Below are positions 21,001 through 33,000 of a stretch of 64,000 nt of DNA, one piece after another. The stretch spans positions 2,480,001 to 2,544,000 of the forward strand of contig NC_135257.1 of NCBI RefSeq assembly GCF_964204865.1, read 5' to 3'. This stretch comes from Styela clava. Its lineage: Eukaryota. The first letter of the stretch is position 1. Each line of letters begins with the position of its first letter. A program made the position numbers.

Positions 21001-24000
21001 GTGGTATTTTTCGAGAGAAAATTGAAATAAGACACTGTCATATTTTCGGGGAAACACGGTATATCTTGAACGGATGTTATTACTTGTGTGAAGTTTTGTC
21101 AGTGCGTAGCTCACTATATGCTACAGAAAACGAGGCCCAATTGCAGCCAAAACTAGCATGTAACCGCAATGCACCTAATAAATGCATCTCGTATATATAT
21201 AAATGAAAAATACGTTAATGGCTCAGGAGGGTTTTCGAATAAAGAGTCACAATATACCAATGTTAAATATTTTCGTCGAACAATAGCATGACATATGAGT
21301 GAATACCTAGAAAAGTTAATGAGTTTTACTCGTTATAGTAATCAAGTATTTATGACCAGAACATACTAGGAATTATGGAACCACAGTTCTTTTTACTAGT
21401 TGTTACTTTTCCGTTCTTTACATTTTATACTTCACTAACACACGTAGCTTCGATCAATGGAATGCTATTTTTTAAATACAATACACTCGTGCGTGAGATT
21501 GCCGTTTATAGAAGGAGCTTGTCAAGTTGTCATTAAGATTGTTGGGAAATATTTTCAACTAACAGGTTGAGTGGAAATAGTTTACTTTGCATTTGTTTTT
21601 CGCTTTTTCAAGCTTTCAATTATTTTATTGGTTTTCAAAACACAAAAGTCTTGAAAGTTCAAATGATTTGGTATTAATATTTACACCTTAGATTTAGAAT
21701 ATCAGTATACTTGTTCTGCTTATTAATCTGTTTGGGAGATTATTCAAAGCTACGTCACGGAAGCAGGTCAAACACTAATTTCTGTTCTGATGAATATACA
21801 CAATCGTTTAATCCATTAATCGCTAGATTTGTCTCACTTAATTGTTCGTAAAAAATAGGTCGCTTCAAAATAAGGTCGGCAAATACTCTTCCAGTAGAGT
21901 AGACTATAAAAATGAATTAACTGTGTTCTTTCCCAGATTAAACCTATCAGCCTAGTCGTGTTGACATTGATAACGAATGTTCGATTTAGTATCAATGCTC
22001 AACTTACCCATTTTGGATGAAACAAAATTTTTTTAACTAAATTTATTTTATAGCTTCATTATCTAAGAGTCATGAGAAATTTAAATATTTTTCTCTTGTT
22101 ATGTGCGTTATTTGGAATGGCATTTTCAAAGTTTTGTCCAAGGATAGGACTAGAAGACGTTGATTGGGTAAAGGTAAGTGATATGTGATAGTAGTAAACA
22201 AATTTATTTTTCTTTCAGTTGCAATGCATGATCATATAGAAAACAATGAAAAATCATATAGAAAACAATTTCATAAGCATTTAGATTCGATTTCACAGGG
22301 TATACCAAGCCAAGGTACTCCACTTCTCATTGTTACTCAAATATAAATAATAATGCTGACGCCATGTATATCTAACGACATGTATATTTGATCTGATAAT
22401 GTTTACACTTATGACAAAACGTTTCTCAATATCAAATGGTTTTTATTATTTACTATAAAGATTTTGAATCCATAATATTTTCAGTTTAGTTAACTCGAGG
22501 CAACATGGTATGATGTAATTGACAATCCGCAGTACGAATACCTAATTGATTGTTGGGATTGGAAGAGTTTTGTAGCAATTGGAGATGGATTTGCAATGAA
22601 TGCAACTATGTATGCCCAAGGGTATGTCCTTACGTTTAAAAAAAATATTTTTGGACCAAAATCCCGTTTCGATTATCATAATGTTTATGTATATATTGTG
22701 GTAACTATGTTTCTTTCGGCTATTTTCGGTCGTCAAGTTGCATATTAGACAGAATTAATATTAATAATGACCGATTAGTTGTTCACTTCGTTGTTGTGGC
22801 ATTATGTTTTGTATCTTCCTAGTCAAGAGTGTTGCTGAAATCGTTATCTTGATTTACGATGTACAGTTCCTACAACTAAACTAAAACGACAAATACGCAT
22901 ATTTATGGTATATTAACATTTAAAACGACAATGCCAGTATAGATATATTTTAAATATGTATGTGTAAACATGTCTTTGCACGTTGATTTGAACATGCGTT
23001 TCTCTGTAACAAACGCTTGAACATGGTAGCAAAATATGACTAATCGCGCGAAATTATTTTCTATCTAGTTAATAATATACGATCGGCATCACCGACATGC
23101 CCAAACACACCCTCTCAACAATTGTGGAACGCTCAGCGATATCCGCATGGTAACAATCTAAATTGTAGCAATTCTATGGTTAGTTTAAGATTTCACGTTT
23201 CTAGCTGAATATGCTGAGAAAAGAAATGGCATGGCATCATAGGACTTATAATGTCCGATTTCAATATTTTTTGAAGAATTTGTAATGTTTTGCCGGAATC
23301 AAGAGAAAGCGTCGGCTATCCGTTTCAATCATAAGACTTGATGGTGTCATTTTACTGCAATCATTTTAATATTGCCACATTTTATTTTCATGTTCACAGT
23401 CGACCGGTAGAGAAACATTTAGATGTTTACCTGCATTTCATTCCCAACGAAGATGGAATTTATTCCGTCAACCAGGCTCACAGTAATTTATTTTTTTTTA
23501 ATTCAAATAAAAGTAAAACACTTGGCGTAATTATAGCATATTGCACGAGAAAATTTTATACTCATAAGTGAATATATATTATGATGCCTAGTTTGATCTG
23601 AACAACCCCACGCTCCTCGAGTAAACTCTTTTTTTCCTTACATATATCATAAATCGTAATACGTTTCACATGAGAGCAATATAGTATTTAACAAAGCGAT
23701 ATATTTATATTCGATCTGCTTCTTGTTTAGAATCAGCATACGCCAGTAGAGTTAAAGAATCCATTACTCATAAAGCTGATGAAGAAATGCTGAAGGCCGC
23801 TGATGTTGGCAAGCACTTTTTATTTTTTTTATTACTTCATGTTCAGTATGTTTTACGTAGAATAATGCACTTCAATGGAGCGAGAGTTGAGCCCAAAAAA
23901 TGAAATAAAATATCCCGTTCACGCATTCGACTGTTCGAGTTCCGTTCTGTTCAAATACATTTCTCATATATACTATGCAATTTTTATTTAACAATACATT

Positions 24001-30000: not shown

Positions 30001-33000
30001 TCAGCAGAATAGCCAAGGCATGACATGCAGTAGGTTAGATAAATCGGCCGGGCCAAATTACACGTACGGTGAGAATCGATGCGATTTGACCTTCGCCAAT
30101 TATATCAACGACGAAGCCACGTTTGAAACAAAAATATGTAATATATCTAATGATCATTTATCTTTAAAATTATAAATCATCTTCATTTTTTCAAGCTTGA
30201 TGATATTCGTGAACATGTTGATATTGTACTTTCATCAAAATCAGCTTTTGCATTTCGTTTAAAAATGTTGTTGTGCTTAGTATAATTATTATAGTGAATA
30301 TATCTAGCCCCGGGCAACATAAAACAGTTTTCTGATTAACAAAGTTTCATAAACCTGATTTATCGAAAATGTTTAATTGTTACTTAAGTCTTCTACGTGT
30401 ATTTTAATTTATGGAATTTCATTTTCGTTTTTGATTACAGAAGTTGATTTTACTACAACAAGCAAGAAAGCAATTTCACATAGATTTGATAAGAAAGTTA
30501 GTGAGGTTGATGCTCGTAAGTAATTCATCATTTTGTTATATTTACAAGGTAGAGAGAACGGCGCTCCGGAAGTATTTGTACCAAGATGACGCACAACTTC
30601 AACAACCTTAACCTGTTACACATTCTATGTTCAGGTTGTGAGCCATATTGATACGAATACTTTGGGAGCACCGAAAGAACATGCATAAAAATTATCCTTT
30701 CAATGCAATTCTAATAAAAAATAAAACACAAATTGCAAAAATGTTTCTAGTCTCATTGTGGCCATTATCGTCTCTTTTATCATATGACATTTTGATTCTA
30801 TGGTACTAAATATTTTTAAAATATCGCCTCCGAAGAAAAAATTATTGCCTTGAAACTTTTGAATTAAAATTTTGTAGTGATGTACATATATCACAAAATT
30901 TCTGTTTTGTGTATTTCAACTCAATGACACGTGACCTGCCGGACAAAAATGAAATAAAGTGGTATTACACGGTGACAACATAGTTTTATTTTATATCCAG
31001 TTGCGGACTTCATATTTGCGGGAAAGTTTTTCTTCATTACGGACTACAAAAATTATTTCATCGTTGCATCGTGCGATGCTGAAAGAGGTAATAATACGAG
31101 TATACCTAGTTGAGATGAACGAAAACACGTTTGCCTAATGTACTAGGAAATCGTAATGAGTTTAATTTTGATGAACTATATCGAACGAAAGGCAATAATC
31201 ACAAATTAGCCCTTTTACACGATTTCCAAGTTGCCATTCGGCGGGTACCACTGAGAGTACCACCAAAAACAGTTTGAATATTTCAGACCCGGAGCATATA
31301 GTTCATGAACATTAGCACTAGGTAGTACATATACACGTAAACGAAGATCCAAATTCACCCGTCACATCCTCCGTGGTGCTATTTAGTGAGTTATACTGCC
31401 ATGACTTATAGTTTGAAAAGAGCTTCTACTTGAATATACCAACTTTTTTGGTTTTTAAACTCCGTTCTTTTTTCAGGATTGAGTGTATTTGTAAAAAACA
31501 GAACCCTTCGACCAGATGGACAAGACATGTTAAATTTGTGGAATATGTTTATTAAATACAGAGAATTACCGCAACAAAAGGTGGTTTTGAGCGAAGCATG
31601 TATTAATCGAAAATCTGGCAGTAGAGCTTGGTCTTTACACCAATGCAGTATATTTTCGCATCCTTCAATCATTTTATTGTTATACGTTGGTCATTGCGTT
31701 ATCAGCCATATTTTATTTTGGTGAAGGAACGAGTCTTGTTGAAACTATAGTTTTGTTTATAATAAAACTTTTTTATTGAAAATTCTAATCATCCATGCAC
31801 TGTAAAAATAAAATTAGTTGGGAAACCTAATGGAATTAAAACAGTCGCTCTTGTAACTCTGACCCTCTGGTTCTCCCTCCAGAATGAAAAAAAAAATTGT
31901 GTTAGTATAAATGTTGGAACTTTTTCATATTATAGCCTAGAGAGATTTTAATAACCTGATTCTACGATAATTTTAAATAAATATCCAACGGTGAAGATTT
32001 AATATTTCTTAATATGACTATGCCTTTGATTTGGGCGAGGAAAAAGGATCTTTCGTTCTTTTAAATTACTCAAATTTGAGACACAATTTGCAATGGTCAG
32101 GATGCAAGTTGTGTTAGTCGTCAACAGACAGCGAATTTATATTTGAATTGAGCCACCAGAGTACGATTCCGTACGGTAACGTTATTAACAGTGTTTGAGC
32201 CTATAAATAAAGCCTGTAAAAACTGTGTGTTTTGAGAATATTGCTTTTTTCAAGAAATCAACCTATGATATGAGAAATTATATTCTAATGAGCCTCAGAA
32301 AATCAGACTGGCTAGTAATCGTAGCCGATCATTAACGCAGGCTTGGGCGCCATTACCAGTACTACATTCCGTTGATATTAAGAAGTACGATGCATAATAA
32401 ATATGCAACGATACTAAATGTAATATCAGGTCCATGAAGTTCGAATACTTTGTTGACCTTTAAGTGATAATCAAATAAAGGAATTCCCGTATTTTGATGA
32501 TCAAATTGTTAAACGCAATATATATATTAAAAGTGTTGTGGGAGCATGACTATTCTAGTATTACTGCCCAAAAGTTTTTTATATGACGTCTAAACTGCTA
32601 TCGATAGAATGATACAAAACGAAGAGTTTAAAAAATTGACTCGTTCATAATAAATAATTGTCACGTGTGAAATTTAATTTTTAATCGTATATTTACGGAA
32701 ACCAGGTTAAACTTGAGAAAATCTGTTAATTTATTTGCAACATGTTCCAAGCTTATTAACTTAAGTTATATAAATTATTGGAAAAAATAGGATTCTGGAA
32801 GAATGCTTTTGGTAGTTTTTCTTAGTCGCTGAATAGTGGATGCCTAAATTTTTAGCTGTATCTTTAAACCAGGGGTTTCCCAACCTTTTTTCTGTCAAGT
32901 CATGAGTCTTTGAAATATCAAAAGACAGCCTGCTGCGAGCATTAGAGAAAGTGATTATGCTTATTAAAACTTGGGAGAGATTTTAAGAATCCATTAGTTA

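What the first reader, a model, noticed from the sequence alone, without database searches (positions are those of the whole stretch)
22072..31724. Hidden tandem lipocalin pair: soluble-type copy and GPI-anchor-type copy
The ORF track captures only fragments of these genes. Both have 6 exons with identical intron phases, signal peptides and four Cys placed as in ApoD. Copy A stops at CINRN*. Copy B continues about 36 aa further through a small-residue site (SGS), a spacer and a hydrophobic end, the layout of a GPI signal. GPI-anchored lipocalins are rare; grasshopper Lazarillo is the classic case. Gain or loss of the anchor between adjacent paralogs suggests a soluble-carrier / surface-tethered ligand-handling pair. 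This is the most plausible undescribed system in the window.
Basis: partly seen in the sequence, partly recalled or inferred. Interest (0 to 1): 0.7.

Follow-up and report, generated by a model that had tools for sequence, protein, structure and literature searches.

The report
Tandem divergent lipocalin genes, sea squirt
Two neighbouring genes of the sea squirt Styela clava encode very divergent lipocalins (small-molecule carrier proteins); one carries a tail that looks like a signal for a lipid membrane anchor, and the other appears to be damaged.

Summary
The window is Styela clava (a tunicate), not human. Both six-exon genes are real at the stated coordinates, with intron phases 0,2,1,1,1. 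RefSeq already models them as "uncharacterized protein": B is LOC120346283 (244 aa, all six exons, tail included) and A is LOC120346285 (137 aa only).

They are lipocalins, but only deep methods show it. Pfam and single-sequence PDB searches find nothing. A family profile hits human ApoD at E 2e-7. AlphaFold models give eight strands plus the C-terminal helix, and their top Foldseek matches are all lipocalins. The family has 25 representative clusters, and every one I could look up is from S. clava.

B's 37-residue tail after CINR has the layout of a GPI signal. I found such a tail in only 2 of 23 aligned members. No GPI predictor was available.

Copy A is doubtful as a "soluble partner". At the acceptor homologous to B's, it reads an in-frame TAA (22491-22493). 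Only a weak GAG acceptor 15 nt downstream keeps the frame open.

The finding is partly supported and of moderate interest.

The parts
22072..22173 (+). Copy A exon 1: start codon, hydrophobic signal-like N-terminus, first conserved Cys; phase-0 GTAAGT donor
   Evidence: not contained in RefSeq P0004
22485..22499 (+). Copy A: 15 nt homologous to the first five codons of B exon 2. They follow the homologous CAG acceptor (AG 22483-22484) and contain an in-frame TAA at 22491-22493
   Evidence: DNA alignment A versus B; acceptor table; relatives read F-S-N-L-N or L-S-K-M-E here
22500..22621 (+). Copy A exon 2 in the only frame-open version (acceptor AG 22498-22499 with G at -3). Holds the W-Y-D motif and the second Cys; phase-2 donor
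   Evidence: RefSeq P0004 starts at a Met inside this exon
23400..23482 (+). Copy A exon 3
   Evidence: found in P0004 at 10-36
23731..23808 (+). Copy A exon 4, followed by a GC donor (23809-23810)
   Evidence: P0004 38-62
24055..24141 (+). Copy A exon 5: T-N-Y-K-T-Y motif and third Cys
   Evidence: P0004 64-91
24856..24995 (+). Copy A exon 6: fourth Cys, ends CINRN then TAA (24993-24995). AATAAA lies at 25048
27265..27369 (+). Copy B exon 1: start codon, hydrophobic signal-like N-terminus, first Cys
   Evidence: P0003 1-35; predicted helix 2-18
28461..28597 (+). Copy B exon 2: W-Y-D motif and second Cys; followed by a GC donor (28598-28599)
   Evidence: P0003 36-80
29808..29890 (+). Copy B exon 3
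   Evidence: P0003 82-108
30441..30515 (+). Copy B exon 4: codes most of the predicted two-helix insert. Least conserved exon between A and B (5 of 25 identical)
31001..31087 (+). Copy B exon 5: T-D-Y-K-N-Y motif and third Cys
   Evidence: P0003 135-162
31477..31724 (+). Copy B exon 6: strand H, C-terminal helix, fourth Cys (31599-31601), tail and TGA stop
   Evidence: P0003 164-244
31611..31721 (+). Copy B tail, residues 208-244. Candidate omega site S-G-S at 31614-31622, then a polar spacer, then a hydrophobic end at 31668-31721. AATAAA lies at 31761
   Evidence: pLDDT below 52 with a terminal helix at 232-243

Best explanation
These are two tandem paralogues of a highly divergent, ApoD-like lipocalin family that has expanded in Styela clava.

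Copy B (RefSeq LOC120346283, isoform X1, 244 aa) encodes a complete precursor with these parts:
- an N-terminal signal sequence;
- an eight-stranded calyx with four Cys placed as in ApoD;
- a two-helix insert between strands E and F;
- the usual C-terminal helix;
- a 37-residue extension whose layout is that of a GPI attachment signal: small residues S-G-S, a polar spacer, and a hydrophobic stretch running to the last residue.

The inferred mechanism for B has four steps. The protein is imported into the ER. It folds and forms disulfides. The GPI transamidase cleaves it near S209 and attaches the anchor. The protein is then displayed on the outer face of the plasma membrane, holding a small hydrophobic ligand. 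All four steps are inferred; none is shown here.

Copy A (LOC120346285) keeps all six exons and ends one residue after CINR, with no tail. It carries an in-frame TAA in the first 15 nt of the homologous exon 2. In this assembly it is therefore most likely a recently disabled or poorly expressed copy, not a dedicated soluble partner. The tail probably arose once, at the base of the A/B/C subclade, and was lost in A.
For: Species. Exon peptides match S. clava RefSeq proteins at 99-100%.

Gene model. All six B exon peptides lie in P0003, and A exons 3-6 lie in P0004.

Lipocalin identity:
- A profile of 23 family members hits human ApoD 2hzq at E 2.1e-7, Per a 4 at 4.6e-7, then sandercyanin, crustacyanin and bilin-binding protein. 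The first Cys, the W-Y motif, the second Cys and the T-D-Y-x-N-Y...C block are aligned.
- The AlphaFold2 model of P0003 has pLDDT 82.4 and pTM 0.73, with eight strands and helix 177-189.
- Foldseek against the PDB gives 296 matches at E <= 0.001. All listed top matches are lipocalins, with TM by target 0.60-0.65 for most.
- The same holds for P0028, the closest full-length relative of A: pLDDT 84.4 and 375 matches.
- The ESM Atlas gives ApoD/lipocalin clusters at score 0.93.

Tail:
- 2 of 23 aligned members have 40 residues after the last Cys; the other 21 have 4-17.
- The tail has low confidence and does not pack onto the barrel in either model.
- All three RefSeq isoforms of B read through the tail.
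- AATAAA lies about 40 nt after B's stop.
- The tree gives (B,(A,C)) with support 100/98, and tail columns were not used to build it.

Copy A defect:
- The DNA alignment places A's TAA opposite coding codons of B.
- Of three candidate acceptors, two give early stops. The third has G at -3.
- RefSeq's protein for A starts at an internal Met.
Against: - No Pfam lipocalin model reaches threshold on any exon peptide (0 of 12) or on any of the 13 whole proteins scanned. The best are sub-threshold hits in two distant members, E 0.004 and 0.008.
- Single-sequence phmmer of P0003 against the PDB finds no lipocalin.
- GPI attachment was not tested with any dedicated predictor.
- The putative spacer is long: 9-15 residues, with 35 residues from the omega site to the end. 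The hydrophobic end contains two His, and a third His (H224) lies just before it.
- My GPI-like rule was written after seeing the tail.
- The second tailed member, P0028, is a superseded RefSeq model. Its newer model, P0005, has a different C-terminus.
- The two tails share only 5 of 37 identical residues by my ungapped reading, so common origin is inferred from equal length and layout only.
- No remnant of a tail is visible downstream of A's stop: 43 of 108 aligned bases are identical, against 83 of 134 in the shared coding part.
- Copy A shows no significant rate acceleration: 16 versus 10 unique changes over 136 columns, p 0.24. Apart from the TAA its exons are intact, so it may still work through the downstream acceptor.
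Confidence: 0.6

Rival explanations
1. A true functional pair. Copy A is spliced at the 22500 acceptor and secreted as a soluble lipocalin. Copy B is GPI-tethered. The two handle the same ligand, one in solution and one at the surface.
For: With the 22500 acceptor, A has six open exons, a good signal-like N-terminus and all four Cys. A's body evolves no faster than that of its sister C. The genes are adjacent and on the same strand, 2.3 kb apart.
Against: The only frame-preserving acceptor has G at -3 and lies behind two better AGs within 15 nt. Using it would delete five residues that both relatives keep. RefSeq's model of A has 137 aa and no signal peptide. A and B share only about 45% identity (92 identical residues summed over the six exon alignments), so a shared ligand is not implied. 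Nothing here bears on co-expression.
Confidence: 0.2
2. B's tail is not a GPI signal. It could be a C-terminal membrane helix that stays attached, or a functionless read-through into former 3' UTR that leads to retention, degradation or plain secretion.
For: T-rich, AT-rich sequence easily translates into hydrophobic peptides, and open runs of 37 or more codons occur at 13% of reading positions in the window. The hydrophobic end holds two His and the spacer is long. AlphaFold predicts a helix at 232-243. The tails of B and P0028 are barely similar in sequence.
Against: The hydrophobic stretch runs to the very last residue, with no cytoplasmic or charged stop-transfer residues. By established knowledge, not tested here, that is typical of GPI signals and not of type I anchors. 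A tail of the same length and layout in a paralogue about 50% diverged in the body argues for constraint. Only 245 of 127400 random reading positions pass my GPI-like rule.
Confidence: 0.3
3. The proteins are not lipocalins. They would be a Styela-specific secreted family that only mimics the fold in prediction.
For: Pfam finds no lipocalin domain at threshold on 0 of 12 exon peptides and 0 of 13 whole proteins. Single-sequence PDB search finds none. All structure evidence is predicted.
Against: The sequence-profile hit to ApoD at E 2.1e-7 aligns the signature motifs and the Cys. Two independent models have pLDDT above 82, and the top Foldseek matches are exclusively lipocalins. The intron-phase pattern matches the one reported for chordate lipocalin genes.
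Confidence: 0.05

Closest known systems
Grasshopper Lazarillo (GPI-linked neuronal surface lipocalin)
   Same: A lipocalin with a signal peptide, ApoD-like Cys and a C-terminal GPI-type signal. The GPI anchoring of Lazarillo is stated in PMC2667264 (introduction passage read) and in titles seen in reference lists.
   Different: Lazarillo is an arthropod protein, and I held no Lazarillo sequence to compare. Copy B is from a tunicate-specific family with a two-helix insert and a 0,2,1,1,1 gene structure. Its anchoring is unproven. Any likeness would be convergent and not orthologous; that is an inference.
Human apolipoprotein D (PDB 2hzq)
   Same: It is the best sequence-profile match, E 2.1e-7. 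The aligned features are the C-P start of the mature protein, the W-Y motif, the second Cys and T-D-Y-E-N-Y...S-C. It also appears among the Foldseek matches of the P0028 model.
   Different: Pairwise identity in the Foldseek alignments is about 16%, and Pfam does not recognise the Styela proteins. About 27 extra positions lie between the two aligned blocks, modelled as two helices. ApoD is secreted.
[quoted passage not shown]
   Same: Identical number of coding exons and identical intron-phase pattern (against the passage of PMC3184775).
   Different: Whether the intron positions match within the fold was not checked. The best sequence matches are to the ApoD and insect bilin-binder side, not to Ptgds.
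The single lipocalin reported for Ciona intestinalis (LCN_Cint)
   Same: It is a tunicate lipocalin (PMC8420045, passages read).
   Different: That survey detected one lipocalin in Ciona by PSI-BLAST. Here a single Styela species has 25 representative clusters of a family that such searches and Pfam would miss. I held no Ciona sequence, so the relationship is untested.

Membership tests
Lipocalin (calycin superfamily) | Eight-stranded antiparallel beta-barrel followed by a C-terminal alpha-helix | tested here: met
   The AlphaFold2 models of P0003 and P0028 show eight strands plus helix 177-189 / 178-190. Foldseek against the PDB gives 296 and 375 matches at E <= 0.001, and all listed top matches are lipocalins. 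These are predicted models only.
Lipocalin (calycin superfamily) | Signature motifs: G-x-W in strand A and T-D-Y-x-x-Y at the F-G turn (motif definitions recalled from the lipocalin literature, not from a call) | tested here: met
   The W-Y-D block and T147/Y149 are nearly invariant in 23 sequences. They align to G-R-W-Y and T-D-Y-E-N-Y of ApoD. In A and B the Gly of G-x-W is Ala.
Lipocalin (calycin superfamily) | Pfam PF00061 or PF08212 at gathering score | tested here: not met
   0 of 12 exon peptides and 0 of 13 whole family proteins reach it. PF00061 appears below threshold in P0023 (E 0.008) and P0027 (E 0.0044).
Lipocalin (calycin superfamily) | Significant sequence-profile similarity to solved lipocalins | tested here: met
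   Profile A1 against the PDB gives ApoD at E 2.1e-7, Per a 4 at 4.6e-7, and then 13 further lipocalin sequences before the first non-lipocalin. The single sequence P0003 found none.
Lipocalin (calycin superfamily) | Chordate lipocalin gene architecture: six coding exons with phases 0,2,1,1,1 | tested here: met
   for both copies; the pattern is as quoted in PMC3184775.
ApoD / Lazarillo clade | Two disulfides, first Cys to third and second to fourth | not testable with these tools
   Four Cys are conserved, and three align to ApoD Cys positions. Bond formation cannot be read from the outputs I had.
ApoD / Lazarillo clade | Phylogenetic placement inside the clade | not tested
The tree contains Styela proteins only.
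GPI-anchored proteins | N-terminal ER signal peptide | tested here: inconclusive
   B has a 17-residue hydrophobic stretch before the residues that align to the mature ApoD N-terminus, and a predicted helix at 2-18. No signal-peptide predictor was available.
GPI-anchored proteins | Small residues at omega and omega+2, a short polar spacer, and a hydrophobic stretch reaching the C-terminus (rules recalled from the GPI-signal literature) | tested here: inconclusive
   S209-G210-S211 is followed by a spacer of 9-15 residues. The best 15-residue Kyte-Doolittle mean is 2.09 and ends 3 residues from the C-terminus. The spacer is long, two His lie in the hydrophobic part, and the rule is my own.
GPI-anchored proteins | Release by PI-PLC, or a positive call by a dedicated predictor (NetGPI, PredGPI, big-PI) | not testable with these tools

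The most novel reading that the evidence does not exclude
Copy B would be the first GPI-anchored lipocalin of a chordate, gained independently of insect Lazarillo. The anchor would have arisen by extension of the last exon, inside a Styela-specific radiation of 25 or more lipocalin clusters. That radiation carries a two-helix lid-like insert at the calyx mouth and is invisible to Pfam and to the lipocalin surveys that credit tunicates with a single gene. Copy A would record the loss of the anchor and be a gene caught in the act of dying.
Probability: 0.35. Interest if true: 0.55.

Novelty: new variant of a known kind. Interest (0 to 1): 0.4.

Why it matters
Lipocalin surveys credit tunicates with very few genes: one was detected in Ciona (PMC8420045). 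Vertebrate and Drosophila lipocalins are all described as secreted (PMC2667264).

Two things would follow if these readings hold.
- A hidden, fast-evolving lipocalin radiation in a stolidobranch ascidian would change the picture of how the family evolved at the base of the chordates. It keeps the chordate 0,2,1,1,1 gene structure and ApoD-like cysteines.
- A membrane-tethered member would be a second, independent case of surface lipocalins. It would offer a simple system for asking what tethering adds to ligand handling.

In practice, it shows that "uncharacterized protein" loci in S. clava can be named by profile and structure methods. The biology (ligand, tissue, anchor) remains untested, so the value is moderate.

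Tried and rejected
- Pfam on my 12 exon peptides gave no lipocalin hit, only one chance DUF hit at E 0.17.
- Pfam on 13 RefSeq family proteins gave nothing at threshold.
- phmmer of P0003 against the PDB gave only chance-level hits, the best being Tex49 at E 0.044.
- Search for a third copy in the window by tblastn gave only a weak exon-5-like hit at 17492-17403 (-), E 0.02, whose translation is full of stops. Rejected.
- Search for a decayed tail downstream of A's stop found identity falling to 43 of 108, near what an optimised alignment of AT-rich DNA gives. No conclusion.
- A relative-rate test for faster evolution of A was not significant, p 0.24.
- A profile word search for relatives in other species found 7 hits, all S. 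clava. The exhaustive phmmer found 25 representatives. Of those, 22 were looked up and all are S. clava.
- An Rfam scan of the whole window gave 0 matches.
- Literature searches:
  - 'Styela' + 'lipocalin': 3 papers, none about such genes.
  - 'tunicate' + 'lipocalin' + 'GPI': 2 irrelevant papers.
  - 'lipocalin' + 'ascidian' + 'apolipoprotein D': 2 papers.

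
Full report
**What the window is.** The window is AT-rich (GC 0.30-0.41) and holds no N. Translated exon peptides match RefSeq proteins of the tunicate Styela clava at 99-100% identity. The matching proteins sit on a 23.8-Mb contig. It is not a human contig.

**Checking the observation.** I read 21900-25100 and 27150-31900 and scripted the exon model.
- Copy A has exons 22072-22173, 22500-22621, 23400-23482, 23731-23808, 24055-24141 and 24856-24995.
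- Copy B has exons 27265-27369, 28461-28597, 29808-29890, 30441-30515, 31001-31087 and 31477-31724.
- Both have intron phases 0,2,1,1,1.
- A's intron 4 and B's intron 2 use GC donors; all other donors are GT.
- A ends CINRN-stop. B runs 37 residues beyond CINR.

I searched the model exon by exon and did not join the exons into a spliced protein. For whole-protein work I used the RefSeq proteins that the searches returned.
- All six B exon peptides lie in P0003 (XP_039271920.1, LOC120346283 isoform X1, 244 aa). They are spaced by exactly the expected split codons.
- A's exons 3-6 lie in P0004 (LOC120346285, 137 aa). A's exons 1 and 2 do not.

So the loci are annotated, but only as "uncharacterized protein".

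A DNA alignment of the intron 1 / exon 2 boundary shows that A's CAG acceptor (exon start 22485) is the homologue of B's acceptor. The next 15 nt align without gaps. There A reads F-S-stop, with TAA at 22491-22493. B reads L-S-K-M-E, and the closest relative C reads F-S-N-L-N.

There are three AGs at this boundary:
- 22483-22484 leads into the stop.
- 22488-22489 leads to a frameshift and a stop.
- 22498-22499 keeps the frame open, but it has G at -3 and sits behind the other two.

G is the least favoured base at -3 of an acceptor (established splice-site knowledge, not tested here). RefSeq's protein for A begins at the first Met after the TAA, which fits a transcript that contains the stop. 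Apart from this lesion A looks intact, and it has not evolved detectably faster than its sister: 16 versus 10 unique changes in 136 columns, p 0.24. I read A as recently disabled or weakly rescued, at about 60%, and not as a proven soluble form.

**Is it a lipocalin?** Simple searches say nothing.
- Pfam found no lipocalin on 12 exon peptides or on 13 whole family proteins. The only traces are sub-threshold PF00061 hits in P0023 and P0027.
- phmmer of P0003 against the PDB found no lipocalin.

- An exhaustive phmmer of P0003 against 1.84 billion representatives found 25 proteins at E <= 0.001.
- A profile of 23 of these family proteins hit human ApoD (2hzq) at E 2.1e-7 and Per a 4 at 4.6e-7, then sandercyanin, crustacyanin A2, bilin-binding protein, insecticyanin and RBP. 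The first Cys, the W-Y motif, the second Cys and T-D-Y-x-N-Y...C are aligned.
- AlphaFold2 with that alignment gave pLDDT 82.4 and pTM 0.73. The strands are at 43-48, 58-67, 70-78, 88-96, 102-104, 143-147, 152-159 and 163-170, with the C-terminal helix at 177-189.
- Foldseek against the PDB gave 296 matches at E <= 0.001, and the listed top matches are all lipocalins.
- P0028, the closest full-length relative of copy A, gave the same architecture (pLDDT 84.4) and 375 matches, including Ptgds, Bla g 4 and ApoD.
- The ESM Atlas pointed the same way: ApoD/lipocalin clusters at 0.93 and structure TM 0.50-0.54.

One family peculiarity stands out. Two confident helices (106-119 and 125-140 in B) sit between strands E and F, coded largely by exon 4. 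By recalled lipocalin topology that loop lies at the open end of the calyx, so the insert may act as a lid. I could not inspect coordinates.

**The family.** Of the 25 representatives, 22 were looked up, and all are S. clava "uncharacterized protein" loci on several chromosome-scale contigs. P0016, P0020 and P0026 could not be looked up. A profile word search added three more S. clava proteins and none from another species. A maximum-likelihood tree of 25 rows groups B with A and C (LOC120346234) at 100/98, with A and C as sisters at 93/83. C lies on the same contig but outside the window.

**The tail.**
- In the 23-row alignment these two have 40 residues after the invariant last Cys. The other 21 have 4-17.
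- B's tail offers S209-G210-S211 as an omega site, then a polar spacer, then a hydrophobic run to the very last residue. P0028's tail offers N-G-G, a spacer and a hydrophobic run.
- Both tails are low-confidence and detached from the barrel in the models.
- By a rule I wrote after seeing the tail, 245 of 127400 reading positions in the window would give such a tail. Open runs of 37 or more codons are common, at 13%.
- All three RefSeq isoforms of B include the tail. Isoform X3 is an exon-2-skipping form that starts at an out-of-frame ATG at 27347.
- AATAAA follows B's stop at 31761 and A's at 25048.

There are caveats. No GPI or signal-peptide predictor was available. The spacer is long and the hydrophobic part holds two His. 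P0028 has been replaced by a newer model (P0005, 184 aa) with other ends. The two tails share only 5 of 37 residues by my ungapped reading. Downstream of A's stop no relic of a tail is visible: 43 of 108 identical against 83 of 134 in the shared coding part.

By parsimony on the tree, one gain at the base of the A/B/C clade with loss in A is simpler than two gains. This rests on a superseded model.

**Mechanism.** B is most likely imported into the ER and folded into a disulfide-bonded calyx. It would then be cleaved near S209, transferred to a GPI anchor, and displayed on the cell surface with a small hydrophobic ligand. All of these steps are inferred. I put the anchor itself at about 0.5.

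The ligand is unknown. The nearest solved relatives bind steroids, fatty acids, bilins and carotenoids (names). That is a lead only.

**Comparison and novelty.**
- Lazarillo of grasshoppers is the known GPI-linked lipocalin. Drosophila and vertebrate lipocalins are described as secreted (PMC2667264, introduction passage; titles).
- A lipocalin survey detected a single lipocalin in Ciona (PMC8420045, passages).
- Searches for 'Styela' + 'lipocalin', 'tunicate' + 'lipocalin' + 'GPI' and 'lipocalin' + 'ascidian' + 'apolipoprotein D' found nothing on such genes.
- The S. clava genome paper (PMC7540406, seen only in the search listing) was not among the hits. Its supplements were closed.

I rate this a new variant of a known kind. 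It is a Pfam-invisible, lineage-expanded lipocalin family with a helical insert, and one member has a GPI-type tail. The "soluble/tethered pair" idea is weakened by A's stop codon.

**Verdict.** Interest is 0.4.

Noticed in passing
window 13211-15289 (-): A single uninterrupted 692-codon ORF encodes an acetyl-CoA synthetase (Pfam ACAS_N, AMP-binding and AMP-binding_C; E down to 1e-80). It is intronless in a genome whose neighbouring genes have many introns, so it may be a retrogene or an acquired gene.
   Followed up: partly
window 4086-6063 (-): A pogo/Tigger-like DNA transposon remnant. One ORF has DDE_1 and an overlapping upstream ORF has HTH_psq in another frame, so the transposase is probably frameshifted.
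   Followed up: partly
window 36308-42729 (-): A BEL/Pao-type LTR retrotransposon: ORFs of 835, 153 and 1168 aa with DUF1759, Peptidase_A17, integrase zinc-binding and rve domains. It explains the GC-richer block seen.
   Followed up: partly
window 54074-57948 (+): Several exons of a type-B carboxylesterase gene (PF00135 at both ends of the profile).
   Followed up: partly
window 24466-24841: A 180-bp tandem repeat (2.1 copies, 96% matches) fills the end of copy A's intron 5 and stops 14 nt before the exon 6 acceptor. Any effect on splicing is unknown.
   Followed up: no
window 27347-27369 and P0002: RefSeq isoform X3 of copy B is an exon-2-skipping transcript. It starts at an out-of-frame ATG inside exon 1 and regains the frame in exon 3. 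Isoform X2 starts at a Met in exon 2. Neither has a signal peptide.
   Followed up: yes
P0003 residues 106-140 (window about 30441-31020, exon 4 and the start of exon 5): Both models predict two confident helices between strands E and F. Canonical lipocalins have a short loop there. The coding exon is the least conserved between A and B, 5 of 25 identical. It may be a lid over the calyx, but the geometry was not inspected.
   Followed up: partly
outside the window: LOC120346234 (P0028 and P0005), same 23.8-Mb contig: A third close family member has two very different RefSeq models. The older 245-aa model has a B-like first exon, an A-like body and a GPI-like tail. The newer 184-aa model has other ends. 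Its DNA could not be fetched.
   Followed up: partly
window 17403-17492 (-): A weak tblastn match to the exon 5 region of the family (E 0.02), but the translation has several stops. It is a chance match or an old relic.
   Followed up: yes
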